Below are positions 1 to 15,566 of a stretch of 64,000 nucleotides of DNA, in pieces. Both the position numbers and the translations under genes were made by a program. The notes under the pieces are model-generated. The model was not told the origin of the DNA. It saw nothing but the letters and a program-made list of their open reading frames with translations, and made no database searches. Numbering within the stretch: position 1 is the stretch's first letter; the number at the start of each line of letters is the position of its first letter. Origin of the DNA: a virus (taxonomy: Duplodnaviria; Heunggongvirae; Uroviricota; Caudoviricetes); IMG/VR virus record IMGVR_UViG_3300025659_000002, positions 1 to 64,000 of that record; one strand, given 5' to 3'.

Positions 1-277
1 TCAGAGAGTCATACGCATACCCTTTTAAAAAGTCCCTATACACGGGAGTGAAATAATAACATTTCTTTTTTAAAAAAGTTGCTTCTGAATCAGTTAACCG
101 TAGTGATCCCATTGCGTTAATATTGCTTATCAATTTTGTAGCAAACGAGTCACTAAACTCAACTGGAGTTCTCAATATCCACTTGTATTCTACTTCCAGG
201 TTTGGAAATTGCTGACAAACAAACATTTGTTGTGTAAATTTATATATGTCGTTATCTAAAATTGAATTAATTAACAT
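1..277 (-). CDS. nicotinate phosphoribosyltransferase-like (PncB N-terminal part); 3' end truncated by window edge
   Basis: Minus-strand ORF not in the track, starting at ATG (rev-comp of 275-277) and running off coordinate 1 with no stop. N-terminus MLINSILDNDIYKFTQQMFVCQQF resembles the PncB N-terminal LLDTDxYKLxMxQ motif (from memory). Confidence 0.4.
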   Translation of the reverse strand, partial: MLINSILDNDIYKFTQQMFVCQQFPNLEVEYKWILRTPVEFSDSFATKLISNINAMGSLRLTDSEATFLKKKCYYFTPVYRDFLKGYAYDSL

Positions 278-570
278 TATTTGGTATCCTTTCCAGAGTG
301 TATTGTACGTAATACGGTTAGGCTGGAAGAACCGTCAACCACCTCTATTATACAACGCTCGATAGCATAGTCTTTCAATAAAAAGTGTCTTTCTGCTATC
401 TTTCTCCAACCGTAGTTATCGTATCCTTGAACGTCTATTTTAGTGGGACTAACTTTAGTTATTGCCCACCTACGTTGTGTCCAGTATGACGGAATGTGGT
501 CTTCGCCAGTACTAGCTCGTACCGTTATAACGTCATCTACTTTTAATTTAAACATCTGTTTCCTCTCCAT
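277..570 (-). CDS. hypothetical protein (97 aa)
   Basis: ORF track; TAA stop; co-directional with tightly packed neighbours (TAATG overlap with downstream gene). Confidence 0.45.
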   Translation of the reverse strand: MERKQMFKLKVDDVITVRASTGEDHIPSYWTQRRWAITKVSPTKIDVQGYDNYGWRKIAERHFLLKDYAIERCIIEVVDGSSSLTVLRTIHSGKDTK

Positions 571-736
571 TAAGTTTATCGAGTTTTCTACAAATTTGTA
601 ATAGAAGTATATCTGTAAGGGTTAGTCTGCCATTTCCAAATTTGGTTTCCAAAATAAGTTGTAAATCCTCATCTATGGTAGCTTCTAAAGGTAGTATAAC
701 CTCACTCATTAATAAACCTTCTCGAGTATTTCCCAA
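548..736 (-). CDS. hypothetical protein (62 aa)
   Basis: ORF track; fills gap in minus-strand operon; TAA stop. Confidence 0.35.
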   Translation of the reverse strand: MGNTREGLLMSEVILPLEATIDEDLQLILETKFGNGRLTLTDILLLQICRKLDKLNGEETDV

Positions 737-1044
737 CGTGCCTCGGGAATATTAATTACTTGAACTATTTCGCCATTGACAAAAAAAGTTAGTTTGTTGT
801 CACCTATTGACACACGATCCGCTAAGTATTCTTTGTCATATTTAATATTATAAGCTTTGTCATAAACTGTAAGAGTATAGGTAGTTCTAGAATCATTTCC
901 ATAACCTAATTCTGTTTTCGTACCATTCGCATCTATAACACCAGAATTAAAAAGCTTTGGTATTGCCACTGAGCCTATAATCCCTGCAATTACTAGAACA
1001 ATAATTAGTTCTATTATTGTAAATCCTTTTTTACTTCCATTCAT
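709..1044 (-). CDS. prepilin-type N-terminal domain protein (type IV pilin/pseudopilin-like)
   Basis: N-terminus MNGSKKGFTIIELIIVLVIAGIIG is the class-III signal / N-methylation motif (K-G-F-T-[LI]-I-E plus hydrophobic helix) of type IV pilins and ComGC-like pseudopilins. Confidence 0.55.
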   Translation of the reverse strand: MNGSKKGFTIIELIIVLVIAGIIGSVAIPKLFNSGVIDANGTKTELGYGNDSRTTYTLTVYDKAYNIKYDKEYLADRVSIGDNKLTFFVNGEIVQVINIPEARWEILEKVY

Positions 1045-1492
1045 TTTCTTTTAGTTCCTTTCTTACTTTCATTAATGCTTTTCCTAAAAGGTTTGTACCT
1101 TTACCATTTTTTCCGATGCCCCATATTGCGTCGTTCCATTCAGCCGCGTCTTCTATTAATTCTGCATCTTGTGTACATAGTAAAATCTTTTTGTAAAGAT
1201 CTATTTTGAATTTTTCTCTTAAGCACATAACCATAATGTCATATTTTACTTCTTCCCAATCTGGGCGAAGATTTACTTTATTACCCGCACGTTTAGATTT
1301 GCCAGGGGTTTTTAACTGTGCTATTTCTTTACGTATTGTGTTATTAAATGTTTTATGTGCTTGAAACGCATGCTCTACTGTTGGATATTCAATACCTTCT
1401 ATAGTAATAGGGGAATGTGCAAAATTAGAAAAATATTGATCATAGCCTGATGGCTTCTTTGCGGAGAAAATTATTTGGTTTGTGTTTTTCAT
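1031..1492 (-). CDS. NADAR / YbiA-like (DUF1768) domain protein
   Basis: YDQYFSNFAHSPITIEGIEYPTVEHAFQAHK matches the conserved NADAR core (SNF...G..Y.S.EH.fQa.K). Confidence 0.6.
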   Translation of the reverse strand: MKNTNQIIFSAKKPSGYDQYFSNFAHSPITIEGIEYPTVEHAFQAHKTFNNTIRKEIAQLKTPGKSKRAGNKVNLRPDWEEVKYDIMVMCLREKFKIDLYKKILLCTQDAELIEDAAEWNDAIWGIGKNGKGTNLLGKALMKVRKELKENEWK

Positions 1493-1523
1493 TTGTTAGT
1501 TTGATTTTTATTATTTAAAAGTG

Positions 1524-1606
1524 TGGGCAGAGAAGGATTCGAACCTCCGAACCCCGTAGGGACCAGATCTACAATCTGGCGCTTTTGACCGCTCGGCCAG
1601 CTGCCC
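1524..1606 (-). tRNA. tRNA-Tyr (anticodon GTA), type II with long variable arm
   Basis: Rev-comp reads GGGCAGCTGGCCGAGCGG...CCAGA-TTGTAGA-TCTGG...GGTTCGAATCC...CTGCCCA. Anticodon loop TTGTAGA; D-arm CCGAGCGG like tRNA-Tyr. Confidence 0.7.
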
Positions 1607-1613
1607 AACTTAA

Positions 1614-2321
1614 TTATCGTTCTCTTCCATGGTAGTCGTTCGGATATAAATCTTCTGATAAGTCTGATTGCCAGTACTCATGCGTATTTACATCCATGAT
1701 AGTAAGTTTTCCTTCCCAACCTGATCCGGTGTCTAACATCCATAGATTGGAAATATTTAAAGGTTTATCCGTTCCAAACATTCCTGTAGTTGTATGCCCA
1801 ACGAATACCTCTTTATAATCTTTAAATTCACGCTTTTGAGTTACGTAAATTTTTGCCACTTCAATGATGTGACGATTCCAATACAAATTATACGGATCCT
1901 GATCCCGGATAGGGACCTTTTGATCGAATCCTCCGTGTACGTAGATTTTGTTCTCATCATCGATGTGGTAAAATACTGTTTTGTTACGTAGATAATGTAG
2001 GTGCTTAGTTCTCCATTCTAGTGGGGCTGACACGTAGCTGGCAATTGTAGCCATACCACCTTGTCTAGTCCACAATGAGGGAGTTTGTCCATATTCTAAC
2101 CACCCAAGTAGCCATACGTCGTGATTACCTATAACCTATATTAAATTCTTAATCTTTAAAAGTTCTTCGAAACACTTTGCCGTATCTGGCCACCCGTCAT
2201 TTATATCGCCAAGAAAGACTAATGTATCCTCCTCATAATTGAAGTTAGAACGTTCGAAACATTGGAGCATGCCCTGGTAATTACCATGTACGTCTCCCAG
2301 TACAAATATTTTATTTTTCAT
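1614..2321 (-). CDS. calcineurin-like metallophosphatase (lambda Ser/Thr phosphatase-like), interrupted by one in-frame TAG at 2136-2138
   Basis: ORFs 2136..2321 (GDVHGN, GDINDGW motifs) and 1614..2075 (HGGF, GHT) are in the same frame. The 20 codons between them translate VIGNHDVW (the GNHD motif), so a single TAG splits an otherwise intact gene. Confidence 0.55.
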
Positions 2322-2557
2322 CCTTCATCCTTTGTAATGTGGTTTATACAGGCAGCTATTCTACTATCCTGGTAAAATGGATCCATTGCTGTAGCTCTAA
2401 TCTCTTCTGCTACTTCCGGATAAAGTATATAAAGTGCATTAAAAATACATTGCCCACGTCTCCAGAGGGGGTTGTTTAGTCCCATTTTATTTGTTGTTTG
2501 AAAGAGGGTTTTCATTTCCTCTTGAGTTAATTTATTCATTACCAACGTCTCCCGCAC
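2318..2557 (-). CDS. hypothetical protein (79 aa)
   Basis: ORF track; ends in TGA that overlaps the downstream ATG (ATGA), so TGA acts as a stop here. Confidence 0.45.
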   Translation of the reverse strand: MRETLVMNKLTQEEMKTLFQTTNKMGLNNPLWRRGQCIFNALYILYPEVAEEIRATAMDPFYQDSRIAACINHITKDEG

Positions 2558-2724
2558 TCACACTCCCAGCGTCCTTTATAAACTTTGGTTGCTAATAGTC
2601 CGCAACTATGGCATGTCATTTTTGGGGCTATACGGGTATTTATTCCGAATAGTACTCCTTTTAAAAAGGTGTCAATTACTTGGAAAAGCCCGGTAGTAAT
2701 TTTATCTTTAGTTTCTTGTTTCAT
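2539..2724 (-). CDS. small zinc-ribbon protein (start trimmed to MKQETKD)
   Basis: ORF track 2539..2787; the upstream part overlaps a tRNA-like element, so the internal ATG at about 2724 was chosen. CHSCG...CECG motif. Confidence 0.35.
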   Translation of the reverse strand: MKQETKDKITTGLFQVIDTFLKGVLFGINTRIAPKMTCHSCGLLATKVYKGRWECECGRRW

Positions 2725-2746
2725 AATTATTTCTCTTTTTTTTCTG

Positions 2747-2819
2747 TAGCACGAGTGGGCGTCGAACCCACCTTCCCAGGTTTCCAAAACCCAAGAGCCT
2801 CGCCCCCGGTCACCGCACT
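2747..2819 (-). tRNA. tRNA-like element with atypical D/anticodon arms (possible pseudo-tRNA)
   Basis: Rev-comp has acceptor AGTGCGG/TCGTGCT (7 bp with G-U pairs) and T-arm GTGGG-TTCGACG-CCCAC. The only hairpin in the middle is GGTTT-TGG-AAACC, a 3-nt loop; no 7-nt anticodon loop could be drawn. Confidence 0.35.
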
Positions 2820-2831
2820 AAACCTATTTAG

Positions 2832-3068
2832 CTACCTAACTTTCCTAGCTACCGCTATTATTTCATGTACAAATACATCTCCCAATTCATAGCTGCCATA
2901 AGTATAGGGAGACTTAACTCCGCAAAACCATCTAGCGCCTTCTTTGTTATCATCTATTTGCCATTTTTTTAAAACTTTCCATTCCCAAGACTGATCTAAA
3001 GTTCTCCATATTTCATATGGGTTGTCAAGAGGTCTGGTCTTTCCACATAAATTCTTCTGTCTTGTCAT
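2832..3068 (-). CDS. hypothetical protein (start trimmed to MTRQKNL)
   Basis: ORF track 2832..3152; the N-terminal 28 codons are the reverse complement of tRNA-Glu, so the internal ATG was used. Confidence 0.4.
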   Translation of the reverse strand: MTRQKNLCGKTRPLDNPYEIWRTLDQSWEWKVLKKWQIDDNKEGARWFCGVKSPYTYGSYELGDVFVHEIIAVARKVR

Positions 3069-3094
3069 TTTATTTTTCTGGTTTGTTACCTTCG

Positions 3095-3166
3095 TAGCGC
3101 ATAGGAGAATCGAACTCCTGTACCCAGACTGAAAACCTGGTGTCCTAGCCATTAGACGAATGCGCC
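3095..3166 (-). tRNA. tRNA-Glu (anticodon TTC) candidate
   Basis: GGCGCAT-TC-GTCTAATGGCTAGGAC-A-CCAGG-TTTTCAG-TCTGG-GTAC-AGGAG-TTCGATT-CTCCT-ATGCGCT-A; cloverleaf closes with G-U pairs. Confidence 0.5.
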
Positions 3167-3178
3167 GTTATTAATGAG

Positions 3179-3252
3179 TGGAGAAGAGGGGATTTGAACC
3201 CCTGACCCTCTGCGTGCAAAGCAGTTGCTCTCCCAGACTGAGCTACAACCCC
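3179..3252 (-). tRNA. tRNA-Ala (anticodon TGC) candidate
   Basis: GGGGTTG-TA-GCTCAGTCTGGGAGAGC-A-ACTGC-TTTGCAC-GCAGA-GGGTC-AGGGG-TTCAAAT-CCCCT-CTTCTCC-A. G3:U70 present; two acceptor-stem mismatches in my hand fold. Confidence 0.5.
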
Positions 3253-3258
3253 ATTAAT

Positions 3259-3495
3259 TTATTCTGTTTGTTCTGTTGCTTGTTTTTCTTCTTCTGCCAT
3301 GACTACTTCTGATTCGGCCCATGAAAGTATTAAAAGATACCACACGATTCCACAAATGGCATAACAAGCTAGTCCATATGTTTTTGCCCATCCGGCTTTC
3401 TTTGTATACTTTGGCATTAGCGACATTACTAGGAACATAGTTCCAAGCCCAAATATAATTCCCACTGGTATGAGAAGTACTATAATTCCCATCAT
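3259..3495 (-). CDS. small membrane protein (78 aa, two TM helices)
   Basis: ORF track; hydrophobic stretches; TAA stop. Confidence 0.45.
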   Translation of the reverse strand: MMGIIVLLIPVGIIFGLGTMFLVMSLMPKYTKKAGWAKTYGLACYAICGIVWYLLILSWAESEVVMAEEEKQATEQTE

Positions 3496-3520
3496 AACGT
3501 TGTCCTTTCTTTTTATTTCG

Positions 3521-3593
3521 CAGAGCGCACGGGGATCGAACCCGCAGTCTCCGGCGTGACAGGCCGGCGTGTTACCATTAACACTTCCACCCT
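3521..3593 (-). tRNA. tRNA-Asp (anticodon GTC)
   Basis: AGGGTGG-AA-GTGTTAATGGTAACAC-G-CCGGC-CTGTCAC-GCCGG-AGACT-GCGGG-TTCGATC-CCCGT-GCGCTCT-G. The CUGUCAC loop is classic tRNA-Asp. Confidence 0.65.
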
Positions 3594-3602
3594 ATAAATT
3601 AG

Positions 3603-3674
3603 AGCCTAGGGAAGGAGTTGAACCTCCATTTCTCTTAGCGGACTAAGAGCGTCTTACCATTAGACGACCACGGC
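3603..3674 (-). tRNA. tRNA-like element with 8-nt (or self-pairing) anticodon loop, anticodon region AGTCCGCT
   Basis: GCCGTGG-TC-GTCTAATGGTAAGAC-G-CTCTT-AGTCCGCT-AAGAG-AAAT-GGAGG-TTCAACT-CCTTC-CCTAGGC-T. The anticodon arm is an 18-nt perfect palindrome (7-bp stem plus 4-nt loop, or 5-bp stem plus 8-nt loop). Two acceptor-stem mismatches. Confidence 0.35.
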
Positions 3675-3676
3675 GT

Positions 3677-3749
3677 TGGTTGGGGGTGTGGGATTTGAAC
3701 CCACATTCGCCTGCCTCTGCAGACGTCCTTTACGTTGGATGAGCCCCCA
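3677..3749 (-). tRNA. tRNA-like element with encoded 3' CCA and shortened anticodon loop
   Basis: TGGGGGC...GTGGG-TTCAAAT-CCCAC-ACCCCCA-A-CCA. The middle hairpin GTCTG-CAGAGG-CAGGC has a 4-6 nt loop, not a 7-nt anticodon loop. Confidence 0.35.
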
Positions 3750-3786
3750 TTAATTTTTTCTCTCTATGTCAAAAAACTAGAATCTT

Positions 3787-4026
3787 CTATAGAAGGTTCT
3801 TTTGTTTTAAAATACGATTTACATGTAGTTTTGTAATTACAGGCTGTTTATTTTGACTAGCCATATGTAACGCAATTTTAACCTCTTTACCTTTGTGCCC
3901 TGGTTTGCTTGTTGCAAATTTTACAATTCGTCTTGCTATGTTCATTTCCCGTGTTTCACGCCCCAGGTATCGTTGGCATTTTATTTTGTCTCTACCCTGT
4001 TTGTTAGAGTTTGATTTTTGTGACAT
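3787..4026 (-). CDS. basic small protein (79 aa)
   Basis: ORF track; K/R-rich; lies between tRNA genes. Confidence 0.4.
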   Translation of the reverse strand: MSQKSNSNKQGRDKIKCQRYLGRETREMNIARRIVKFATSKPGHKGKEVKIALHMASQNKQPVITKLHVNRILKQKNLL

Positions 4027-4035
4027 TAGCTTTCC

Positions 4036-4431
4036 TTATTTTTTAAATCTTTTTTCCAATTGTTTATAAAGCTCAAAATCGTCTTTTTCTTTCTTATTCT
4101 TCCGTCTTGTCGCGTTTCGCTTTCTAGTTATTTCAGATTTTTTTGCTCTATCTTTTAATACATTCGTTCTAATAGTAAATTCCTCATCCGTCTCTTTTCG
4201 ACTCACGCTAACCTCTAATTCGTCGAGCTCTATCCTATCGTCCCACGAGTTGAACTGGCTACAAACTGCGGTAAACCTCACATCTGGGTTGTCTACCCCT
4301 GTCTGTTGTCTAGAAAGAGCTATGATGTGCCTTAGTACCTCTTGTACGTCTTCAAGTTTTCCTTCTAGATCATCATAATCATACGGGTGTGCTATTATTA
4401 TTTTAACTGTTTTCTTTTCATAACTTGCCAT
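4036..4431 (-). CDS. hypothetical protein (131 aa), acidic core with basic C-terminus
   Basis: ORF track; TAA stop. Confidence 0.5.
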   Translation of the reverse strand: MASYEKKTVKIIIAHPYDYDDLEGKLEDVQEVLRHIIALSRQQTGVDNPDVRFTAVCSQFNSWDDRIELDELEVSVSRKETDEEFTIRTNVLKDRAKKSEITRKRNATRRKNKKEKDDFELYKQLEKRFKK

Positions 4432-4453
4432 TGTTTTTTATTGGTTTTATTTG

Positions 4454-4524
4454 AGCAACTAGAGAGAATCGAACTCTCATCGTCTGAGTGGAAGTCAGAA
4501 GTCTTACCGTTGGACCATAGCCGC
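4454..4524 (-). tRNA. tRNA-Gly (anticodon TCC)
   Basis: GCGGCTA-TG-GTCCAACGGTAAGAC-T-TCTGA-CTTCCAC-TCAGA-CGAT-GAGAG-TTCGATT-CTCTC-TAGTTGC-T; all stems pair. Confidence 0.7.
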
Positions 4525-4773
4525 TTTAATTGGTAAAGCTGTGACAATTTCATTAGTTTTCTTATCATATACTACTTTGTATCTAATGCTATTTTGCTCA
4601 ATAATCATAACTAACCTGTGTCCTACTTTTTCTAGAACGCTTACTCCTTGGTCGTTATACTCGTTCCTAATTCTATTCAATAATTCTTTTCTTAGCTTTT
4701 TGGTCAACGTAATATCATAACGCTCTTCAAATCTTTTTACAGCGTGTTGTCGTTGATTGTGTTTATAACTCAT
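4504..4773 (-). CDS. hypothetical protein (start trimmed to MSYKHNQ)
   Basis: ORF track 4504..4851; upstream codons overlap tRNA-Gly(GCC), so the internal ATG was used. The last 6 codons overlap the 5' end of tRNA-Gly(TCC). Confidence 0.4.
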   Translation of the reverse strand: MSYKHNQRQHAVKRFEERYDITLTKKLRKELLNRIRNEYNDQGVSVLEKVGHRLVMIIEQNSIRYKVVYDKKTNEIVTALPIKAAMVQR

Positions 4774-4794
4774 GTTGCCCTTTCTATTTATTTG

Positions 4795-4865
4795 AGCAGC
4801 TAGACGGATTTGAACCGACATTCCAACCATGGCAAGGTTGTGTCCTACCATTAGACGATAGCCGC
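4795..4865 (-). tRNA. tRNA-Gly (anticodon GCC)
   Basis: GCGGCTA-TC-GTCTAATGGTAGGAC-A-CAACC-TTGCCAT-GGTTG-GAAT-GTCGG-TTCAAAT-CCGTC-TAGCTGC-T. Confidence 0.7.
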
Positions 4866-4866
4866 A

Positions 4867-5544
4867 TTACCAAGAAACTTTTCTTATTTTTAATAGAAAA
4901 TCATTTACTAATTTTGAGTTAGCTTCTTTTTTTGTAGACTTATTAAACGCGTCTTCTAGTTTTTCTTCCCAAGAGCTACAAGTTTTTATAACCTCTGGTA
5001 TAGTAGATTCGCCTTCCTTATATTTTCTGCAAAGAATGCCTACTTCTGTATCAGCTATTCTGGCTGTAAAATCGCCAGTTTGTAATAGTTCGTATCCATT
5101 ATATAACATTCTTAACCAGGCCGCTGATGATTTTCTTTTTCTAATGGTATCTAATTCTACATTTCCATTACTAAGGGCTTCATCATTTTCTAAAAGCTTT
5201 TTGCGTTGCGATTGAGCATAACCCCTGTACGAGTGGAAAACTAATTTAGAACTCCAAACGTCTGGAAATAGACTTCTTAACTCTTCACACCAGTTCTCGT
5301 TTTCTGTAGTAAATGTCGCTTTAAAAGTTTCCAGAATTGTAGGATTACTTCTTAATGCGAAATGTAGAAATCTAGCTAATTCCCAGGTATCTGCTGGATC
5401 CTTTGGATCGCTGGGCTGGTGCTCTGGTAAAGCTAAAATATTTGAAGTAGTCTCAATAAATACAGTTTTATAATCGAAATCACTTATAGGAGTATCTAAC
5501 CCATGCAATCTACTTCCTACTAACGCTCTCATTAATAATCTCAT
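4867..5544 (-). CDS. nucleotidyltransferase (Pol-beta superfamily, GS...SD[FI]D motif)
   Basis: N-terminal GSRLHGLDTPISDFDYK matches the minimal nucleotidyltransferase G[SG]x(9-13)Dh[DE] signature. Confidence 0.5.
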   Translation of the reverse strand: MRLLMRALVGSRLHGLDTPISDFDYKTVFIETTSNILALPEHQPSDPKDPADTWELARFLHFALRSNPTILETFKATFTTENENWCEELRSLFPDVWSSKLVFHSYRGYAQSQRKKLLENDEALSNGNVELDTIRKRKSSAAWLRMLYNGYELLQTGDFTARIADTEVGILCRKYKEGESTIPEVIKTCSSWEEKLEDAFNKSTKKEANSKLVNDFLLKIRKVSW

Positions 5545-5578
5545 TTATAATTCCCTATTGTTAATAATTGTTAAAAAA

Positions 5579-5612
5579 AAGACCCAGCGAGTGATCGCCG
5601 GGCCTAATTTCA
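5579..5612 (-). terminator. rho-independent terminator candidate
   Basis: On minus strand: GGCCCGGCGATCACTCGCTGGGTC hairpin followed by TTTTTTTT, immediately downstream of the Hsp20 gene. Confidence 0.45.
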
Positions 5613-5669
5613 AAGATATAAAGCGGTTAAGCTTTATAATGTCTTTTATTGACGATCTACATAGAAGCG

Positions 5670-6056
5670 CTAGCCTTCGCTAACTGTGAACTCCTGTGGA
5701 GTGAATTTCCCTTTTACAGGTATGGCGATGGTTAAAACACCACGAACTAGCGAACTAGTTAATTTTCCATAATTAAAATGTTCACCGTTCTGTAATGGAA
5801 ATTCGTTATAGAAACCTTTACAGAAAGTTCCTTTACCAATCTCTTTATCCGGTCCAGCTGTCACTAACAGGCGGTCATGAGTTGAAGGCGAATTGCCGAA
5901 CGCAGTTCCAGCCTTAGCTATTCTAATTTTAATGTTAGAAGCCTGATAACCTGGTACTAATAGCTCAACCATTACGTTTGGCTCGTTCCAGTACAGTACG
6001 AAGTCTACTGCATCATATTTTTTATCGTCACTTAATTTTGAGTATAAATTGCTCAT
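5670..6056 (-). CDS. small heat-shock protein (Hsp20 / alpha-crystallin family)
   Basis: 128 aa; C-terminal GVLTIAIPVKG is the sHSP I-x-I box; alpha-crystallin-like beta-strand region. Confidence 0.6.
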   Translation of the reverse strand: MSNLYSKLSDDKKYDAVDFVLYWNEPNVMVELLVPGYQASNIKIRIAKAGTAFGNSPSTHDRLLVTAGPDKEIGKGTFCKGFYNEFPLQNGEHFNYGKLTSSLVRGVLTIAIPVKGKFTPQEFTVSEG

Positions 6057-6068
6057 TTGTTGTCTTGA

Positions 6069-7760
6069 TTATTTCATTTTTAGTTGATACATCCGATTCA
6101 TTTCATAGAACCGAACAATATTGCCCTCGTGGGCCAGTGTCATCGACGACTTGATGGCAGAGTCTTTGTAGACCTGCACATCACTTGAAGCCTTAGCGCG
6201 AAACATTTCTAAAGCGCCATCTTCATGTATACTTATAGTTAATCCGTTAGGTAGGCAGATAAAATTCAACATATTATCTGCGTCCTTCAAGATTCTTATA
6301 TCATATTTTTTGAAATTTTCATCGAATACGATAATAAATTTATCATACTTGCTGCCTGATTGTCCTATTATCATACAAACCCTGTCTCGGCATTTTGCAT
6401 CAATTATCTTGTACTTATCTAGTTCAGGAATTGCTACAATTGCACATTTGTTGGGTGCGTATGGTAAATATAAATGAGTTTTACCTAAAATACTAGAACA
6501 TAATACTCCATCTAACATTTCTGTAGAATTATTGAATATTTCCCAAGTATTTAAAATATAAAACGTAGGCTTTGAGCCGGTATCTAATACATCTATTTCA
6601 AAAAATCTATCCTTGTTTACGCCATATAGCCTATTTTCGTATATCATAGTTTTTTCAACCTTAATATTTGTACTATGATAAGGAGATTGGCTATCTTCCA
6701 ATGATCTGTATACTAAAGATTCATCCTTAGTTTTCACAAGAAACGTCTTTTGAGACATACTGTGTGAAAAAACCTTGGAGGTGGTATCTTTAATATAACT
6801 ATTATTGTTATATATGACAACATCTTTTTTGGTATATATTATATACTGTCTACCAAAATAAGTGCAGTCAATTATGTCGCCAGGATAATCGTTTAATTGT
6901 TGTATTGTAAAATATTTGCTTCCGGTGTGTGTTGTTATTATAGGAGTTATTGGAAGTATAATGTACTGCCCTTTCATGTCTGGAGGAGTACTTCTATAAC
7001 CATTTTCAAATACTTCTTTAAACCAATCATAATAACTCTTAGGTATATTTGTAAAGTCCCTTACTGCGCCCGGAACACGCGTTTCAGGGTTAAAGATTGA
7101 TACGTTTGCTCTCATACGTTCTTCTAATGTAGCTCGTTTAAAGTGAGAATTCTTTCCCTTATATGGGTGAATTCCTATAAACAGTTGACAAGCTATTACA
7201 GCGAAGGAAAACCAATCTGAAATTTCTGTGAATTCTGTAGCATGCCAATCTCTAATAGAGGGCATAATTACTGTAGCTGGATAATTAGGAGTTTGCCATG
7301 AGTTTACATCTATACAATAAGCAGTAGTATGCTTTCTAGTTTCTATTAAATAATTTAATTCGTTACCATCGACCATTATTATGTCATGATCGTGCACATG
7401 ACTAATTGTATCCTTAATATTTGTAACTAATTTAGTAACGGTATCGTTATTTAAATTGTTTCTATTAAGATACGCAGATGTAAACATTCTTGGTAATGGA
7501 ATAGACTGAGGTACAGTCTGCATCATAAATCCTATTAACGTGTTTTTTGTAGTGTAAATTAAATTCTCAGGTTTTATAATGGTATTCTTAGTAAGAACTG
7601 ACAGTTCCCTAATTTTTTCTTCAGGTATCATAGTTTTTGGGTCATGAAATATTTTATAAGCTCTTCCACCTTTTACATATACTTTACCCTCTCCACCTTG
7701 AGCTACAAAATTAGAGTCTAATAATGATACTTGCCCCTTTCCTTGTACTAAAACCTTCAT
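6069..7760 (-). CDS. protein kinase-like protein (TerY-P triad kinase candidate)
   Basis: 563 aa. N-terminal AQGGEGKVYVKGGRAYK resembles a glycine-rich ATP loop with following Lys; HDHDIIMVDGNELN is catalytic-loop-like. ATGA overlap with the upstream PP2C gene. Confidence 0.45.
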   Translation of the reverse strand: MKVLVQGKGQVSLLDSNFVAQGGEGKVYVKGGRAYKIFHDPKTMIPEEKIRELSVLTKNTIIKPENLIYTTKNTLIGFMMQTVPQSIPLPRMFTSAYLNRNNLNNDTVTKLVTNIKDTISHVHDHDIIMVDGNELNYLIETRKHTTAYCIDVNSWQTPNYPATVIMPSIRDWHATEFTEISDWFSFAVIACQLFIGIHPYKGKNSHFKRATLEERMRANVSIFNPETRVPGAVRDFTNIPKSYYDWFKEVFENGYRSTPPDMKGQYIILPITPIITTHTGSKYFTIQQLNDYPGDIIDCTYFGRQYIIYTKKDVVIYNNNSYIKDTTSKVFSHSMSQKTFLVKTKDESLVYRSLEDSQSPYHSTNIKVEKTMIYENRLYGVNKDRFFEIDVLDTGSKPTFYILNTWEIFNNSTEMLDGVLCSSILGKTHLYLPYAPNKCAIVAIPELDKYKIIDAKCRDRVCMIIGQSGSKYDKFIIVFDENFKKYDIRILKDADNMLNFICLPNGLTISIHEDGALEMFRAKASSDVQVYKDSAIKSSMTLAHEGNIVRFYEMNRMYQLKMK

Positions 7761-8536
7761 AATATTATTCCAGCAATTCCAATATCGTCTGCGTTAGTAA
7801 TATAATTTCTATTCCAGGTTTTCTTAAGAAACCTTAGTTTTCTTACAGCGAATGCTCCTGCGGCACTTGGGAAATGAGTGATGATATCATCAATCACTAC
7901 TCTCTCTCCAGTATCCCTATCTATTACTTGGTCTATACCATCAGTAGTTAAAATTACCGAAGCTATCGGGTAATCAGGCTGAAATATAAAGGGCATTCCA
8001 GTTTCTAATGCTACATTGGTAGGATCCTCGTCACCATCATTCATGTGAACAACTGTTTGTCCTTTGTCCTTTAAACACTCTTTGTATTCTTCCTGATCTT
8101 TTCGAGTAATGTTATACGCAGGATAGTATGGAGTATTATGAGGTGATTGAATATCTATATGAAGCGGTCCTTCTTTTGAATCTAAGAAACAATGTCCATC
8201 TCCGGCCATAAGAATATAAAAGCTTTGTTTTTCTTTATTATAGATAGCTACCAACACAGTTGACAGCAGCATACGGCGGTCCAGGCCTTGGACATCAGTA
8301 TAACCTTTACATAATTGAAGTTGCCACTCTAATTTTTGACGAGTCAGCTCTCCAAATTCTCTAATGGCTTGTTCTACACTATGGGCTATTAATCTAGCTC
8401 CAAAATCTGTGTGAGGAGCGCTTGAACACCCATCACATACAATAATATAAGCTATCTCATCTGTTTCCCCATGAAGTGTATAATCTTCACAAACCCGATG
8501 AGTGGCCCCTTGAATAAAATGTGAATCTATGTTCAT
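7757..8536 (-). CDS. PP2C-family Ser/Thr phosphatase
   Basis: IVCDGCSS, LMAGDGH, LTTDGI metal-binding Asp/Gly motifs; 259 aa. TGA stop overlaps the kinase ATG. Confidence 0.6.
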   Translation of the reverse strand: MNIDSHFIQGATHRVCEDYTLHGETDEIAYIIVCDGCSSAPHTDFGARLIAHSVEQAIREFGELTRQKLEWQLQLCKGYTDVQGLDRRMLLSTVLVAIYNKEKQSFYILMAGDGHCFLDSKEGPLHIDIQSPHNTPYYPAYNITRKDQEEYKECLKDKGQTVVHMNDGDEDPTNVALETGMPFIFQPDYPIASVILTTDGIDQVIDRDTGERVVIDDIITHFPSAAGAFAVRKLRFLKKTWNRNYITNADDIGIAGIIL

Positions 8537-8565
8537 AGTTTTCCTTTTAATAAGAACGAACGTAA

Positions 8566-8633
8566 CAGCGCGGATTGGATTCGAACCAATGTCTAGGGTA
8601 TCCCCTAACTCTACCCTGCTGAGATACCGCCCC
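8566..8633 (-). tRNA. tRNA-like element (68 nt) with truncated anticodon arm
   Basis: GGGGCGG-TA-TCTCAGCAGGGTAGAG...ATTGG-TTCGAAT-CCAAT-CCGCGCT-G. The anticodon position holds TAGGG-GATA-CCCTA (4-nt loop). Lies between the vWA and PP2C genes. Confidence 0.35.
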
Positions 8634-8664
8634 GTTACGCCGTTTCTTACGTACGTTTTGTAAG

Positions 8665-9429
8665 TTAGAATTTCATACTAGCTTGAGCAGAAGGTCCGCC
8701 AGTGCCAAGTGAATGGCTCTGTGAACTAATGCTTTGGCTAATGAAATTCCCTAATTTTGCAAGAGTTTTAGCATTTGCATTGCCCGCATCAATATATTGC
8801 GTGAGGTCTGCATCATCTTTAAACTCTTTTAATAGTTGTGAAACCCTAGAGCCCCAACCATGGTTGCCGTCTGTGCCTATCCCGATTAATACGGAAATTA
8901 AAGATTCAATTGATTCTTCGGCACGTTTAATGGAGTGTATTCTGTCCTTTACATTAGTGGCTGTCATAGTCGAAGAATTATCATCTCCGTCTGTAATAAC
9001 ATACACGGCAGCATTTACACTGTATTCCTGGTCCGCTAGGGATTTACCATACTGTTCAATTGATCCGATCATATCATAAGTGGCATCAAACAGGTTAGTA
9101 GCTGCGTCAGGTACTAATTTCCCTGAATACTCACTTAAATCTATATCGTTTACAGGCTTAAATCCATGGATTTCCAAAATATCAGTCTGACTATTAAACA
9201 GTGTTACCCTAACAAGTAGATTTTCAGAACGTGCAGACATTTTACATGCCCCCACTATTTCTTCAATCATCTTTTGTAACATAGTTTCATAACCGCCCAC
9301 TGATCCGGTAATGTCAACGACTATACCTACTAAGGTATATTCGGAGGCTTCTAGTTCATCTAAGCCTATTGCTGAAAACTTAAAATTTCCAGCTCCTAAT
9401 AAGTCCACACTTTGCATGGTATCTACCAT
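8665..9429 (-). CDS. von Willebrand factor A domain protein (TerY-like)
   Basis: VVDITGSVGG MIDAS-like DxTGS motif; 254 aa; first gene of the vWA-PP2C-kinase triad. Confidence 0.6.
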   Translation of the reverse strand: MVDTMQSVDLLGAGNFKFSAIGLDELEASEYTLVGIVVDITGSVGGYETMLQKMIEEIVGACKMSARSENLLVRVTLFNSQTDILEIHGFKPVNDIDLSEYSGKLVPDAATNLFDATYDMIGSIEQYGKSLADQEYSVNAAVYVITDGDDNSSTMTATNVKDRIHSIKRAEESIESLISVLIGIGTDGNHGWGSRVSQLLKEFKDDADLTQYIDAGNANAKTLAKLGNFISQSISSQSHSLGTGGPSAQASMKF

Positions 9430-9459
9430 TGATAATCTCCTTTATCTTTGTGTGTTTGT

Positions 9460-10323
9460 TTATTTCAAAAAGTCTTCAGCTTTACAGATCTGCATACCGC
9501 GTGAAACCATTTCCGTTACAAAGTCGGTACCCAATTTCTCAAACCCAGTAACATTTGAAGAAGTGTCTTCAAGCAGTACTAGTTTTTTGATATTCTCTTC
9601 TCCGAAGTTGTCTGCAATATCTTTAACTGTATTAGCTACACAGTGTGATAGAGCCTGACCTGAAAGGGCAATTATGTCTGCGTCTTTTAAAAGTTTTAAA
9701 AGAGTGACGTTTAACTGCGTAGTAGGATCTTCATCGTCAGGTACATCAGCAATAACGCCAGAGTAATGTTCTGTCCAAGGGTTGTGTCCTTTTGTAACAT
9801 AGTTTATTCTGCGTTTTCTGCTTTCTTCCCAGGCTTCAAGTTCTGCGTTTACAACATCTACTACATTGTGGCCCCATGTGCCCACTTTACAATGTGGTGG
9901 CCATATACACAGAAGGTATCTGTCGTTGTCTTGGAGAGCTTGCAGGTAAGCTCTGGCTCTTGGAATTCGATCTGGGCTAGTCGGTGTCCAAACTGATCCG
10001 TTTAAGTCGTCTAGACTTATAAGTGTAAACGGGCCCGGATGTTCTCCAGCACTATTCATCCAAAATAATGGATGCGAAATATCCAACAATTGGTGGGTAT
10101 CTAGCGTCACGTGGATCCCAGTAATTTTACCTCTTAAGCGGTTAAGCACCATAGCTAACCTCTCAGAGTCCTCATAAGCCCCCGGTACCGGTAATTCTGG
10201 TTCTGGAAGTCGTAATCCTATATCCGCCAAATTTATGCCGGCTTTTTGAAGTAAGACTAAATCATTGTTTCGATCCATAAAAGAGTTTTGTGGATCAATT
10301 ATTAAGAAGTGCAATTTTTGCAT
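9460..10323 (-). CDS. isochorismatase-family amidohydrolase, nicotinamidase (PncA)-like
   Basis: LIIDPQNSF (catalytic Asp region), WPPHCKVGTWGH, and SGQALSHCV (nucleophile Cys) are typical of PncA/Pnc1-type nicotinamidases. Confidence 0.6.
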   Translation of the reverse strand: MQKLHFLIIDPQNSFMDRNNDLVLLQKAGINLADIGLRLPEPELPVPGAYEDSERLAMVLNRLRGKITGIHVTLDTHQLLDISHPLFWMNSAGEHPGPFTLISLDDLNGSVWTPTSPDRIPRARAYLQALQDNDRYLLCIWPPHCKVGTWGHNVVDVVNAELEAWEESRKRRINYVTKGHNPWTEHYSGVIADVPDDEDPTTQLNVTLLKLLKDADIIALSGQALSHCVANTVKDIADNFGEENIKKLVLLEDTSSNVTGFEKLGTDFVTEMVSRGMQICKAEDFLK

Positions 10324-10377
10324 TTTGTTTTTTTTCCTTTTCTAACTTGTATGTTATTATTTCGTCAGTTTATTAAT

Positions 10378-11292
10378 TTAGAAGTTTCCGTAGTTTACTT
10401 GGAAACATTGTAGACCTAAGTCTTTACGCCATAGACCAACTACTTGGTCTCTATCATCAAACACGCAAAATACGTTGTATTTATCTTTAACGTGTTCATC
10501 ATAAAGTTTGCGTTTAAGAATTGAATCTCTTATATTATGCTCAAACAATGGTCTCATGAACATCTTCCAATGAGGAAACGGAAGGTTTGCTTTCAAAAAC
10601 TGTCTAGTTTCTGAAAGGTATTTTTCCGATCTTCCAGATAAAAAGATTATTTGGTATCCCTGTTTGTCCATAACGTGAAGAATTTCCCCCAAAATCGCAT
10701 TGTAAGTATCGTTCTCACAAGTAGAGGCGTCATAAGGGTTACGGCCTTTAAGGAATGCCATCGTGCCGTCTAAGTCACAAATGATTGCCTTAGGTAAGCC
10801 GTCTACCAACTCAACCGTGCCTGGAGGCTCAGGATAGTCGTGAGGCTCATCTTTCTTTAGAAACCTACTGTACATATCATAAATAACTTTAGAGCCTACA
10901 TGGGCCGATCCTGTACGTAATGCGTCTCGATCAATGGCATCAAATACATCTGTAGGGAATTCTCTAACCACAACTAATACGTCGTGCTTAACTTCCCGTA
11001 AAATGTTATAGTCCGCCACTATTTTTCTAATATGCTCCTCATTTGAGCTGTGTAAGTTTGTATCATCTACGAATACTGATCTTCCGGCATCTAAGTATCT
11101 AAAGATTAAAGAGTCTCTAATTGCTTTAATTATTTTCTCATTTCCTTTAGAGTATACTCCACCATCAACCATGCTTCGTAGACTATCCCTATTTACACGT
11201 TTGTATGTATCTGGCATTTTATCCATCATATCTACGGCATACGAAGTCTTACCGCTTGCGGGTAACCCCCGTAGTATTATTACTTGTCTCAT
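10378..11292 (-). CDS. pnk: polynucleotide 5'-kinase / 3'-phosphatase (T4 Pnk-like)
   Basis: N-terminal P-loop GLPASGKTS plus C-terminal HAD motif I CDLDGTM; same two-domain architecture as T4 Pnk. Confidence 0.7.
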   Translation of the reverse strand: MRQVIILRGLPASGKTSYAVDMMDKMPDTYKRVNRDSLRSMVDGGVYSKGNEKIIKAIRDSLIFRYLDAGRSVFVDDTNLHSSNEEHIRKIVADYNILREVKHDVLVVVREFPTDVFDAIDRDALRTGSAHVGSKVIYDMYSRFLKKDEPHDYPEPPGTVELVDGLPKAIICDLDGTMAFLKGRNPYDASTCENDTYNAILGEILHVMDKQGYQIIFLSGRSEKYLSETRQFLKANLPFPHWKMFMRPLFEHNIRDSILKRKLYDEHVKDKYNVFCVFDDRDQVVGLWRKDLGLQCFQVNYGNF

Positions 11293-11316
11293 TTTGTATT
11301 TCCTTTTATTTATGGC

Positions 11317-11700
11317 TTAGTCTCTATCCCATAACTTTATAGAACTCTCCGCCGTACTCTGGGCGTGTTTGTACTCAACGTCAGAGTATTGGTATAAAGA
11401 TGCTTTCCACATATCTTTATTTCGTGCAAATTGTTCAAGATGCTCGGGAGCTATCACTTCTGTTATTGACAAACAGTTTCCAGCTGATTCACCTAACTGT
11501 GAACTATGTACGCGAGTATTTACATACAAAGTGTCAGAGTCAAAGTCTAACCAGTCGAAAGAGCGCCCCTCACCCTTTGGAATGAATTTAGTATTTTTGA
11601 GTTGGCATATCTCTAACACTGAAGGCTCATATAACCCAGGAAGCACCATTAATACTATATCGCCATCTTTCAGTGTTTTTAAAAGCTGGTTACTTTTCAT
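11317..11700 (-). CDS. hypothetical protein (127 aa)
   Basis: ORF track. Confidence 0.45.
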   Translation of the reverse strand: MKSNQLLKTLKDGDIVLMVLPGLYEPSVLEICQLKNTKFIPKGEGRSFDWLDFDSDTLYVNTRVHSSQLGESAGNCLSITEVIAPEHLEQFARNKDMWKASLYQYSDVEYKHAQSTAESSIKLWDRD

Positions 11701-12765: not shown

Positions 12766-12766
12766 T

Positions 12767-13288
12767 TTATAATTTCCATTCTTGTTTTAAAAAGTTTATT
12801 CTGGCTGTTATACTTTTATAATATTGCCAACCTGCTGGAGACTCCCAGCGATTGCCCGCCCTGTAGGATCTTACAGTTTTGGACCAGCTACCATTATGTC
12901 TCTCATTCTTCCAATAGGTTAGTTCAGTTATTGCTTCTCTACAACTAAGTATGTGACTATCTATGAGCCATTGGGCCACTACATTCCTATTAAAGGGTGT
13001 GTCCTCTATCTCATCTCTATGTCTACTCATATATGTGTTGATATTGATATGGTGAGCTCCTGCGGAAGGGTCTTGCAAATTTACAAGGTATTTACCTCCT
13101 GCAGATTCTTGCCACTCAATAGCAGCTAATGTCCACCCTAAATCAAAGGGCACCCCATATTCATAGGATGCCCGTATTGATTCTTGTTGATGGCTTGTTA
13201 AAGCTTTCCATTCCTCAGGTAAGGCTCCAACGCATAAACATATATTTGTGAGTAGTATTAGTAAATATCTAATCGAGCCAACTTGCAA
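12767..13288 (-). CDS. secreted protein, weak lytic-transglycosylase-like motif
   Basis: N-terminal hydrophobic signal-like segment; AAIEWQESAGG resembles an Slt catalytic ES motif (weak). Confidence 0.3.
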   Translation of the reverse strand: MQVGSIRYLLILLTNICLCVGALPEEWKALTSHQQESIRASYEYGVPFDLGWTLAAIEWQESAGGKYLVNLQDPSAGAHHININTYMSRHRDEIEDTPFNRNVVAQWLIDSHILSCREAITELTYWKNERHNGSWSKTVRSYRAGNRWESPAGWQYYKSITARINFLKQEWKL

Positions 13289-13469
13289 TTGCAGCTATAC
13301 CGCCTACAGCTAAAAATAATAAGACGAAGCCAAGCCACAGCGGGGCAGTTATCCACCACCAACTCCATGTAATGACTCCAACTAACTTTAGGACAAGTAA
13401 TACTATAAATAGTATGAATCCGGGATTTTTCATTTTTTCTCCGTTTGTTTTGGTTTTAAATATTTCCAA
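13269..13469 (-). CDS. small membrane protein (66 aa)
   Basis: ORF track; two hydrophobic helices. Confidence 0.4.
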   Translation of the reverse strand: MEIFKTKTNGEKMKNPGFILFIVLLVLKLVGVITWSWWWITAPLWLGFVLLFLAVGGIAAIASWLD

Positions 13470-14503: not shown

Positions 14504-14506
14504 TAT

Positions 14507-15523: not shown

Positions 15524-15537
15524 AAATCTCCATAAAG

Positions 15538-15566
15538 AAAAACGGGGCCGAAACCCCGTTTATATA
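15538..15566 (-). terminator. rho-independent terminator candidate
   Basis: AAACGGGGTTTCGGCCCCGTTT hairpin followed by TTCTTT on the minus strand, between the 15567..16418 stop and the 14507..15523 start. Confidence 0.5.

What the first reader, a model, noticed from the sequence alone, without database searches (positions are those of the whole stretch)
2318..7760. TGA is still a genuine stop in the minus-strand blocks, so recoding is module-specific
Minus-strand genes end in TGA with classic ATGA stop/start overlaps (2318-2321, 7757-7760, 57698-57701), and the ORFs do not continue. The genome therefore mixes standard-code genes (repair, host-takeover and small genes) with TGA-as-sense genes (structural and packaged proteins). 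No tRNA in the window carries a TCA anticodon; the only Trp tRNA (57261-57332, CCA) sits immediately upstream of the 58 kb recoded block. This layout is what is expected if suppression is switched on late to time translation of virion genes.
Basis: partly seen in the sequence, partly recalled or inferred. Interest (0 to 1): 0.7.

Follow-up and report, generated by a model that had tools for sequence, protein, structure and literature searches.

The report
Block-wise TGA-to-tryptophan recoding in phage
This piece of a roughly 212-kb marine phage genome reads TGA as a stop in its early-type gene blocks and as tryptophan in its virion-type blocks, a rare but already described split genetic code, and no phage tRNA able to read TGA was found.

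Summary
The three ATGA stop/start overlaps are where stated. In the minus-strand blocks (window plus flanks) 149 ORFs hold 20,465 codons, 362 TGG and no in-frame TGA. Nineteen of them end in TGA, eight as 4-nt overlaps with the next start. In the plus-strand blocks 43 ORFs hold 88 in-frame TGA against 86 TGG (Fisher p = 3.5e-52). All four TGAs of a 725-aa protein align with Trp in standard-code relatives.

The window is identical to a marine metagenome scaffold, and the same proteins occur on a 211.7-kb contig. I scanned about 94% of that genome. It has 28 tRNAs (27 for all 20 amino acids plus an amber suppressor, anticodon CUA) and a tmRNA, but no tRNA(UCA). The tRNA-Trp(CCA) lacks the known UGA-reading mutations.

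A promoter-like motif, GGTATAAGA, occurs 18 times on the minus strand and never on the plus strand. That fits separate early and late programmes. The temporal-switch reading therefore matches the published model for code 11/code 4 phages but is untested here.

Two corrections. Recoding follows modules, not strands: a minus-strand glycan module elsewhere in the genome is recoded. One minus-strand gene in the window carries an in-frame TAG.

Verdict: a new member of a known kind, of moderate interest.

The parts
2318..2321 (-). ATGA overlap. The TGA stop of the 79-aa ORF (2557->2318) overlaps the ATG of the metallophosphatase gene (2321->1614).
7757..7760 (-). ATGA overlap. The TGA stop of the PP2C-like 259-aa ORF (8536->7757) overlaps the ATG of the 563-aa ORF (7760->6069).
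   Evidence: Pfam PP2C_2 in the gene table.
57698..57701 (-). ATGA overlap. The TGA stop of the 64-aa ORF (57892->57698, five TGG codons) overlaps the ATG of the 58-aa ORF (57701->57525). AAGGAG lies 8 nt upstream.
1..33400 (-). Minus-strand block using the standard code. It holds tRNA-repair genes (PNK 10378-11292, RNA ligases 11701-12765 and 13430-14503), a Thg1-like gene (24818-25537) and tRNA clusters. It has no in-frame TGA. TGA stops lie at 2318, 7757, 13430, 22946, 23293, 23531 and 23836.
40400..57950 (-). Minus-strand block of small genes using the standard code. TGA stops lie at 40869, 41267, 41752, 44652, 47105, 52156, 52558, 53993, 55060 and 57698. It contains 10 of the 15 GGTATAAGA motifs in the window.
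34203..35696 (+). About 497-aa ORF with in-frame TGA at 34422 and 35277. I read it as spike- or baseplate-like only from its C-terminal GHTHGTGVGPSSPP sequence. There was no PHROG or Pfam hit.
35696..36238 (+). 180-aa ORF with in-frame TGA at 35903 and 36080.
36319..38496 (+). 725-aa protein with in-frame TGA at 37039, 37276, 37492 and 38050. All four align with Trp in the closest homologues. In the standard-code relative L002 those Trp are encoded by TGG.
38951..39418 (+). 155-aa ORF with one TGA (38978) near its N-terminus. There is a weak haemolysin-like PHROG hit.
58380..60419 (+). 679-aa low-complexity protein with in-frame TGA at 60114 and 60159.
60653..61917 (+). Two ORFs (60653-61195 and 61195-61917), each with one in-frame TGA (60731, 61225). 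The TGA at 61225 lies inside the N-terminal motif MNKAQYIFEK-TGA-A, which is shared with neighbouring genes and has Tyr or Leu at that position.
57261..57332 (-). tRNA-Trp, anticodon CCA, the only Trp tRNA found. A GGTATAAGA motif lies 60 nt upstream (57392-57400).
1614..2321 (-). Metallophosphatase gene interrupted by an in-frame TAG (2136-2138), between the GDxxDG and GNHD motifs.
   Evidence: The same split gene calls appear in a second assembly (L010).
57922..57930 (-). GGTATAAGA promoter-like motif in front of the first minus-strand gene of the diverging region. It is one of 15 in the window, all on the minus strand: 22689, 32931, 32983, 34146, 40233, 47583, 47894, 48186, 51118, 51924, 52911, 53098, 54884, 57392 and 57922.

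Best explanation
The window comes from an uncultivated marine jumbo phage of about 212 kb whose genome is written in two codes, module by module.

The minus-strand blocks of the window hold tRNA and tRNA-repair genes and many small genes. They use the standard code. TGA never encodes an amino acid there and ends about 13% of the genes, often as an ATGA overlap with the next start.

The plus-strand blocks hold a 725-aa conserved protein, a run of proteins with a shared N-terminal motif, the terminase, RNA polymerase subunits and PhoH. A glycan module elsewhere in the genome belongs with them. In these modules TGA supplies about half of all tryptophan codons.

These modules cannot be translated by an unmodified standard-code cell. 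Their expression must therefore wait for, or depend on, a UGA-to-Trp decoding activity that appears during infection. This is the published code-switch model.

Shown: the two codon usages, TGA = Trp, TGA as a stop in the other modules, and strand-specific promoter-like motifs.
Inferred: early versus late timing, and a standard-code host.
Unknown: the decoder. No tRNA(UCA) was found in about 94% of the genome.
For: TGA = Trp:
- Four of four TGAs in the 725-aa protein align with Trp. W241 and W578 are nearly invariant.
- In the standard-code relative L002 the same positions are TGG-encoded Trp.
- The TGA in PhoH aligns with the Phe of GFLPG in PDB 3b85.
- The GDP-mannose dehydratase matches its Pfam profile end to end across 3 TGAs.
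- TGG alone gives 0.63% Trp in the plus set. TGA plus TGG gives 1.27%, against 1.77% in the minus set.

TGA as a stop and never as sense in the minus blocks:
- 0 TGA and 362 TGG in 20,465 codons.
- 19 of 149 ORFs end in TGA, 8 with exact -4 overlaps.

Not an assembly artefact:
- The window is 100% identical to ENA scaffold_55 over 12,082 nt.
- The same proteins occur on 39-50 contigs, up to 211,738 bp, in several samples.

Separate programmes: the GGTATAAGA motif occurs 18:0 minus versus plus, where about 1 is expected by chance in the window.

Relatives show graded TGA use. L003 and L004 have a little, at homologous Trp sites. L001, L002 and L005-L007 have none in the homologous gene.

The model and its block layout are described in bioRxiv 10.1101/2021.08.26.457843 and 10.1101/2022.06.29.495998.
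Against: - There are no expression or proteomic data, so 'early' and 'late' are inferred from gene content and a motif.
- The decoder is missing. ARAGORN (default, with introns, and at 90% thresholds) and the Rfam tRNA model found no UCA anticodon in about 200 of 211.7 kb.
- No RF1 or TrpRS gene appeared in the Pfam-annotated gene tables. The 65-kb IMG/VR part was not Pfam-scanned.
- The host is unknown.
- TGA stops are not depleted in the standard-code blocks (13%). This differs from the 'ancestral depletion' step proposed by Borges et al.
- If suppression is switched on, those 19 genes would be read through, by a median of 8 extra codons.
Confidence: 0.85

Rival explanations
1. An ordinary phage-encoded suppressor tRNA(UCA) exists and was simply not seen. 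It would lie in the roughly 11.8 kb I could not read. That stretch holds the lysis cassette (Amidase_2, GTA_holin_3TM) and intergenic gaps of 334 and 600 nt. The system would then be a textbook case of the published model.
For: [quoted passage not shown] The unread region contains the lysis cassette and sizeable gaps. About 6% of the genome is unscanned.
Against: All 27 other tRNA genes and the tmRNA lie in one region (window -15 kb to +19 kb), and only tRNA-Trp lies apart. That set already covers all 20 amino acids plus CUA. Published surveys find Sup-UCA in only 35% of code-4 phages, and in 3 of 17 complete code 11/4 genomes.
Confidence: 0.35
2. UGA is read without a UCA tRNA. Either the phage's own tRNA-Trp(CCA) reads it, or a phage-directed change of C34 does (editing or modification). 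A non-canonical tRNA-like RNA is another possibility.
For: No UCA tRNA was found in 94% of the genome. The phage keeps its tRNA-Trp apart from all other tRNAs, behind its own promoter-like motif, beside a recoded block. Compared with E. coli trpT it differs at the D-stem/anticodon-stem hinge, with U26 instead of A26 and a 4-nt variable loop. The genome also encodes a SpoU-family RNA methylase and a Thg1-like enzyme, and it carries several odd tRNA-like RNAs.
Against: A9 and G24, the two positions whose mutation is known to let tRNA-Trp(CCA) read UGA (Hirsh G24A and A9C; from my own knowledge of that literature), are wild type. With up to 23 TGAs in one gene, near-cognate reading would have to be very efficient. 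None of the tRNA-like oddities has a UCA triplet in its loop.
Confidence: 0.2
3. The host itself reads UGA as Trp (code 4), and the whole phage is simply a code-4 genome.
For: TGA = Trp is the code of Mycoplasmatales and some symbionts. The host is unknown.
Against: The minus-strand blocks have 362 TGG and 0 TGA in 20,465 codons. Nineteen genes end in TGA, eight as exact 4-nt overlaps with the next start. Genuine code-4 genomes use TGA for 80-90% of Trp codons. The samples are marine water-column metagenomes such as Saanich Inlet at 150 m, where no free-living code-4 lineage is known (my own knowledge).
Confidence: 0.04
4. Artefact: the contig is a chimera of a code-4 phage and a standard-code phage, or the TGAs are sequencing errors or pseudogenes.
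For: The source is a metagenome.
Against: The blocks alternate several times along one contig (minus, plus, minus, plus). The same order is found in independent assemblies from different samples. The TGAs sit at conserved Trp positions and recur at homologous sites in relatives L003 and L004.
Confidence: 0.01

Closest known systems
Gut phages with code 11 / code 4 blocks (crAss-like phages of Yutin et al. 2021; Mgcod survey, bioRxiv 10.1101/2022.06.29.495998)
   Same: The genome is divided into blocks. One block is compatible with the standard code and enriched in early functions. The other has in-frame TGA aligning with Trp and is enriched in virion functions. The code switch often coincides with a strand switch. 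Most such genomes lack a detectable Sup-TCA tRNA (only 3 of 17 have one), and two of those three also carry Sup-CTA.
   Different: This phage comes from the marine water column and is about 212 kb, with multisubunit RNAP-like genes, 28 tRNAs and a tmRNA. The 725-aa protein has no protein-level match in deposited phage genomes. Recoded modules occur on both strands. TGA is used as a real stop for 13% of genes in the standard-code blocks.
TGA-recoded Agate and Jade phages and the 'code switch' model of Borges et al. (bioRxiv 10.1101/2021.08.26.457843)
   Same: TGA -> Trp. Recoded codons are concentrated in structural genes while replication and early genes stay standard. Close relatives use the standard code. 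Suppressor tRNAs are detected in only 35% of code-4 genomes.
   Different: No RF1 or TrpRS was seen in the Pfam-annotated gene tables, which do not cover the 65-kb IMG/VR stretch. The TGA stop is not depleted in the standard-code blocks. This genome carries an amber suppressor and one in-frame TAG although the recoded codon is TGA. The environment is not a gut.
Phages of code-4 or code-25 hosts (Mycoplasma/Spiroplasma phages; Absconditabacteria phages)
   Same: TGA is a sense codon.
   Different: In those phages the reassignment runs through all genes, because the host uses the same code (legend to Fig. S3). Here 20,465 codons of one gene class contain none.
Hirsh suppressor, E. coli tRNA-Trp(CCA) G24A (and A9C)
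   Same: A CCA-anticodon tRNA-Trp that reads UGA. The phage tRNA is identical to E. coli trpT at positions 1-25 and 27-43.
   Different: The phage tRNA has the wild-type A9 and G24. Its differences are U26, a shorter variable loop and the T-arm.

Membership tests
Phage with mixed standard / TGA->Trp (code 11 / code 4) gene blocks | In-frame TGA in conserved genes at positions where standard-code homologues have Trp. | tested here: met
   Four of four sites in the 725-aa protein. The PhoH site aligns with an aromatic residue. GDP-mannose dehydratase matches its Pfam profile end to end across 3 TGAs.
Phage with mixed standard / TGA->Trp (code 11 / code 4) gene blocks | A contiguous set of genes with no in-frame TGA, translatable with the standard code. 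| tested here: met
   149 minus-strand ORFs with 20,465 codons, 0 TGA and 362 TGG. Fisher p = 3.5e-52 against the plus set.
Phage with mixed standard / TGA->Trp (code 11 / code 4) gene blocks | Recoded genes are enriched in late (virion, packaging, lysis) functions and unrecoded genes in early functions. | tested here: inconclusive
Phage with mixed standard / TGA->Trp (code 11 / code 4) gene blocks | Phage-encoded suppressor tRNA with anticodon UCA (frequent but not universal in the family). | tested here: not met
   None was found in about 94% of the genome with ARAGORN and the Rfam tRNA model. About 11.8 kb was not readable.
Phage with mixed standard / TGA->Trp (code 11 / code 4) gene blocks | The host uses the standard code. 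| not testable with these tools
   No host link was obtained. The only indirect evidence is the TGA stops and ATGA overlaps in the early-type genes.
Genome-wide code 4 (phage of a code-4 host) | TGA is used as Trp in all gene classes and not as a stop. | tested here: not met
   0 of 20,465 codons in the minus-strand blocks are TGA, and 19 TGA-terminated genes include 8 with exact start overlaps.
Hirsh-type UGA-reading tRNA-Trp(CCA) | G24A (or A9C) in the D-arm of a CCA-anticodon tRNA-Trp. | tested here: not met
   The alignment with E. coli trpT shows A9 and G24 unchanged.
Selenocysteine insertion at UGA | tRNA-Sec with anticodon UCA, and few, specific UGA sites. | tested here: not met
   The only hit to the tRNA-Sec model is a class II tRNA with anticodon UGA, that is tRNA-Ser. 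There are 88 sites, and those tested align with Trp.

The most novel reading that the evidence does not exclude
This phage decodes UGA as Trp efficiently without any UCA-anticodon tRNA. It would do so through its own separately placed and separately promoted tRNA-Trp(CCA), which has an altered 26/44 hinge, or through a phage-directed change of C34. At the same time it runs a second, minor suppression channel: tRNA(CUA) acting on an in-frame TAG in an early phosphatase gene. If so, it would be a natural two-channel stop-codon control system with a new opal-decoding mechanism.
Probability: 0.15. Interest if true: 0.85.

Novelty: new member of a known kind. Interest (0 to 1): 0.5.

Why it matters
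Split-code phages are the only known case where one genome must change the meaning of a codon within a single infection. Almost all described examples come from gut crAss-like, Lak and related phages. This one is a widespread marine jumbo phage whose proteins appear in dozens of assemblies. A recent survey found alternative codes in only 0-0.65% of jumbo phages outside gut habitats.

It is also a clean test case for the open question of how UGA is decoded when no suppressor tRNA is detectable. The tRNA set appears complete, the amber suppressor is present and the opal one is not. TGA is still a working stop in about one early-type gene in eight, so switching suppression on has a measurable cost.

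For annotation, single-code gene calling fragments the terminase, the RNA polymerase and a 1970-aa protein in public records.

Tried and rejected
- Megablast and tblastn against deposited phage genomes gave no match.
- PHROG and Pfam gave no function for most recoded proteins.
- An exact-sequence search of IMG/VR with a 42-mer, and of JGI metagenomes with a 50-mer, found nothing.
- Protein-based scans of metagenome contigs and genome contigs, aimed at the last 11.8 kb, found nothing. The one JGI contig covering that region has no DNA available.
- ARAGORN at 85% thresholds with introns reported 'tRNA-SeC(tca)' with long introns inside coding regions, among 293 calls in total. I treat these as false positives.
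- I tested whether TGA-terminated early genes have unusually close back-up stops. The median extension is 8 codons against 10-18 in controls, Mann-Whitney p = 0.07, which is not significant.
- A suspected in-frame TAG upstream of the 1293-aa minus-strand gene was a scoring artefact. That ORF is closed just upstream of its start.
- My codon-score scan for in-frame stops was not specific, because antisense frames also score well. I used it only as a pointer.

Full report
**What the window is.** GC content is about 37%. Genes run on the minus strand at 1-33.4 kb and 40.4-57.9 kb, and on the plus strand at about 33.9-40.3 kb and from 57.95 kb to the end. The minus-strand blocks encode a polynucleotide kinase, two RNA ligases, a Thg1-like enzyme, 12 tRNAs and many small proteins. 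Nothing similar exists among deposited phage genomes at DNA level, and the 725-aa protein has no protein-level match there. The window is 100% identical over 12,082 nt to ENA ERZ23491642 scaffold_55 (138,951 bp). The same proteins occur on 39-50 contigs from several samples, the longest 211,738 bp. One of those samples is Saanich Inlet at 150 m. This is therefore an abundant, uncultivated marine jumbo phage.

**Check of the observation.** The three ATGA overlaps are exactly where stated.
- Individually two of them prove little. Read as sense, the TGA at 7757 is followed by a TAA/TAG two codons later.
- At 2318 and 57698 the extensions of 32 and 79 codons run out of frame through the next gene. 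At 57698 the next gene has an AAGGAG 8 nt before its ATG.
- The collective evidence is decisive. In the window, 16 of 102 minus-strand ORFs end in TGA, 10 of them as ATGA.
- In the window plus flanks, 149 minus-strand ORFs hold 20,465 codons with 362 TGG and not one in-frame TGA. Their stops are TAA 103, TAG 27 and TGA 19. Eight of the TGA stops are exact 4-nt overlaps with the next start.
- TAA/TAG-delimited ORFs on the minus strand carry TGA only at their extreme ends.

**TGA is a sense codon in the plus-strand blocks.** Eight in-frame TGAs join long same-frame segments between 34.4 and 38.1 kb, and no TAA or TAG does.
- The 725-aa protein (36319-38496) has full-length homologues of 700-780 aa.
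- Its four TGAs align with Trp in the closest homologues. W241 and W578 are nearly invariant.
- In the standard-code relative L002 (a 210-kb IMG/VR contig) the four positions are TGG-encoded Trp. In the nearer relatives L003 and L004, TGA recurs at two and one of the same sites.
- The TGA at 61225 lies inside an N-terminal motif shared by neighbouring genes, at a position that holds Tyr or Leu in them.
- Over all plus-strand sequence I could assemble, 43 ORFs hold 13,753 codons with 88 TGA and 86 TGG, and 28 of 43 genes have at least one TGA.
- The contrast with the minus set gives Fisher p = 3.5e-52.
- TGA plus TGG restores the Trp frequency of the plus set from 0.63% to 1.27%, against 1.77% in the minus set.

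**Extent of recoding outside the window.** I walked along the genome with exact-protein look-ups and IMG/VR loci.
- Recoded genes include the GpA-type terminase with 3 TGA and a 2019-codon RNA polymerase beta/beta'-like ORF with 5 TGA.
- PhoH is recoded too. Its TGA aligns with the Phe of GFLPG in PDB 3b85.
- A 1970-codon ORF carries 23 TGA, and a long run of large plus-strand ORFs is also recoded.
- A minus-strand module of glycan enzymes, at window-equivalent about 118-128 kb, is recoded as well. It holds GDP-mannose 4,6-dehydratase, an Asn-synthase-like gene, GT2, GT25 and GT11. The dehydratase matches its Pfam profile from position 1 to 332 across three TGAs.
- Its minus-strand neighbours, for example a 662-aa ORF with 13 TGG that I read as ribonucleotide-reductase-like from its sequence, have none.

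**Two transcription programmes.** The 9-mer GGTATAAGA occurs 15 times in the window, always on the minus strand, against 0.94 expected by chance. In the 121-kb composite the count is 18 to 0. The extended consensus is TTTTTTTACCTTAAAAAG-GGTATAAGAA, often just after a hairpin and T-run. I read it as an extended -10-type promoter of the early class. That is inference. It does show that the two codon-usage classes also differ in transcription signals, which is what a temporal model requires. One copy lies 60 nt upstream of the tRNA-Trp gene.

**The decoder.** The window has no tRNA with a UCA anticodon.
- Left of the window the tRNA array continues with Thr, His, Phe, Ser(UGA), Met (two), Ala, Ile, a tRNA with anticodon CUA, Leu (two), Val, Gln, Arg (two) and Ser(GCU). 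A tmRNA follows.
- That makes 28 distinct tRNA genes. Twenty-seven cover all 20 amino acids, counting one with an unreadable anticodon, and the 28th is the amber suppressor.
- The remaining scanned sequence contains no tRNA at all.
- In total about 200 of 211.7 kb were scanned. The unread 11.8 kb holds the lysis cassette and gaps of 334 and 600 nt.
- The phage tRNA-Trp(CCA) is identical to E. coli trpT at positions 1-25 and 27-43. That includes A9 and G24, the two sites whose mutation gives UGA reading in E. coli (my own knowledge of that literature). It differs at position 26 (U for A), in a 4-nt variable loop and in the T-arm.
- The decoder is therefore unidentified. This is not unusual for the class. 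Sup-UCA was detected in 35% of code-4 phages and in 3 of 17 complete code 11/4 genomes, two of which also carry Sup-CUA.

**A second stop codon is involved.** The metallophosphatase gene that begins at the 2318-2321 overlap has an in-frame TAG (2136-2138) between its GDxxDG and GNHD motifs. The Pfam domain spans residues 4-177 across it. The split is present in a second assembly. The genome's tRNA(CUA) is the obvious reader, but its amino-acid identity is unknown. TAG is otherwise a normal stop, ending 27 of 149 minus-strand ORFs and 9 of 43 plus-strand ORFs.

**Comparison with what is known.** The layout has been described for crAss-like and other gut phages and explained by a code-switch model. 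It consists of a standard-code block with early functions, a TGA->Trp block with virion functions, a frequent strand switch at the boundary, and often no detectable suppressor. The present phage meets the defining features that I could test.

It differs in several ways:
- Lineage and habitat. It is a marine jumbo phage, and alternative codes were found in only 0-0.65% of jumbo phages outside guts.
- Recoded modules occur on both strands.
- TGA is kept as a working stop for 13% of standard-block genes, rather than being depleted.
- It combines an amber suppressor with opal recoding.

Relatives show a gradient from no TGA to light TGA use, as in the proposed evolutionary route.

**Verdict.** This is a new member of a known kind. 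The open point worth following is how UGA is read.

Noticed in passing
window 33301-33738 (-): There is a match to GOLLD RNA (RF02032) at 124.8 bits, E = 1.8e-32, below the family's gathering score of 150. It embeds a tRNA-like element at 33590-33661 (58.7 bits) with anticodon loop AUAUUAA and a bulged acceptor stem, which ARAGORN does not call. It lies in the gap between a minus-strand block and the recoded plus-strand block, and a GGTATAAGA motif sits about 400 nt upstream (34146-34154).
   Followed up: partly
window 8566-8633 (-) and 3677-3749 (-): Two tRNA-like genes have normal acceptor, D and T arms but a tetraloop where the 7-nt anticodon loop should be (GGG-GAUA-CCC and UCUGC-AGAG-GCAGG). 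The first scores 37.6 bits on the Rfam tRNA model. ARAGORN finds them only at lowered thresholds. They sit among tRNA genes and tRNA-repair genes, so they could be decoys or pseudo-tRNAs.
   Followed up: partly
window 3603-3674 (-): A tRNA gene has an abnormal anticodon arm, either an 8-nt loop AGUCCGCU on a 5-bp stem or a 6-nt loop on a 6-bp stem. It also has two mismatches in the acceptor stem. ARAGORN cannot name its anticodon.
   Followed up: no
window 1614-2321 (-), TAG at 2136-2138; L013 11220-11296 (about 9.5 kb left of the window): The metallophosphatase gene has an in-frame TAG. An amber-suppressor tRNA (anticodon CUA, discriminator A73, short variable region) is encoded in the main tRNA array. 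I did not find a second convincing in-frame TAG.
   Followed up: partly
L013 19421-19792 (about 18 kb left of the window): The phage encodes a tmRNA (Rfam 85.3 bits) with tag peptide GRPAVKLAA. It may matter for ribosomes that read through stops when suppression is on.
   Followed up: no
window 57985-58371 (+): A 128-aa protein matches one repeat of the mitochondrial carrier family (Pfam Mito_carr, 53.8 bits, E = 1.7e-14). It carries the signature P-L-D-T-L-Q-V-R-R. This family is essentially eukaryotic, so its presence in a phage is unusual.
   Followed up: no
window 57985-64000 (+) and on to about 67.7 kb (L008 11388-15811): At least eight of the plus-strand genes in this run begin with the same N-terminal motif, M(K)DKAxx[IVF][FY]xK[YLI][AG]. 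They include a SNF2-type helicase (61919-63319). The motif looks like a shared targeting or propeptide signal for proteins packed into the capsid, but that is inference only.
   Followed up: partly
L009 12398-12482 and 12484-12571 (about 1 kb left of the window): tRNA-Thr(UGU) and tRNA-His(GUG) both have long class II-type variable arms (85 and 88 nt), which is unusual for these two amino acids. The genome also encodes a Thg1-like tRNA-His guanylyltransferase (window 24818-25537).
   Followed up: no
window, 15 sites on the minus strand (e.g. 47583-47591, 51118-51126, 57392-57400, 57922-57930): The strand-exclusive motif GGTATAAGA has the upstream consensus TTTTTTTACCTTAAAAAG. It occurs 18 times on the minus strand and 0 times on the plus strand in 121 kb. 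It is probably the early promoter class.
   Followed up: yes
L019 10418-11308; L016/L019 RNAP genes; L009 11216-16421: Outside the window the genome encodes a reverse transcriptase (RVT_1), an intein-containing 779-aa protein and multisubunit RNA polymerase beta/beta'-like genes. It also holds an NAD-salvage cluster (NAPRTase, NAD synthase, NUDIX, NMNAT-like) and a SpoU-family methylase.
   Followed up: no
window 28000-32000: GC skew is positive here although the ORFs are on the minus strand. Elsewhere the minus-strand blocks have negative skew.
   Followed up: no
window 1-10: The window differs from ENA scaffold_55 by a single-base indel near its first bases (TCAGAGAGTC against TCAGAAGAGTC). 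It therefore probably comes from another, near-identical assembly.
   Followed up: yes
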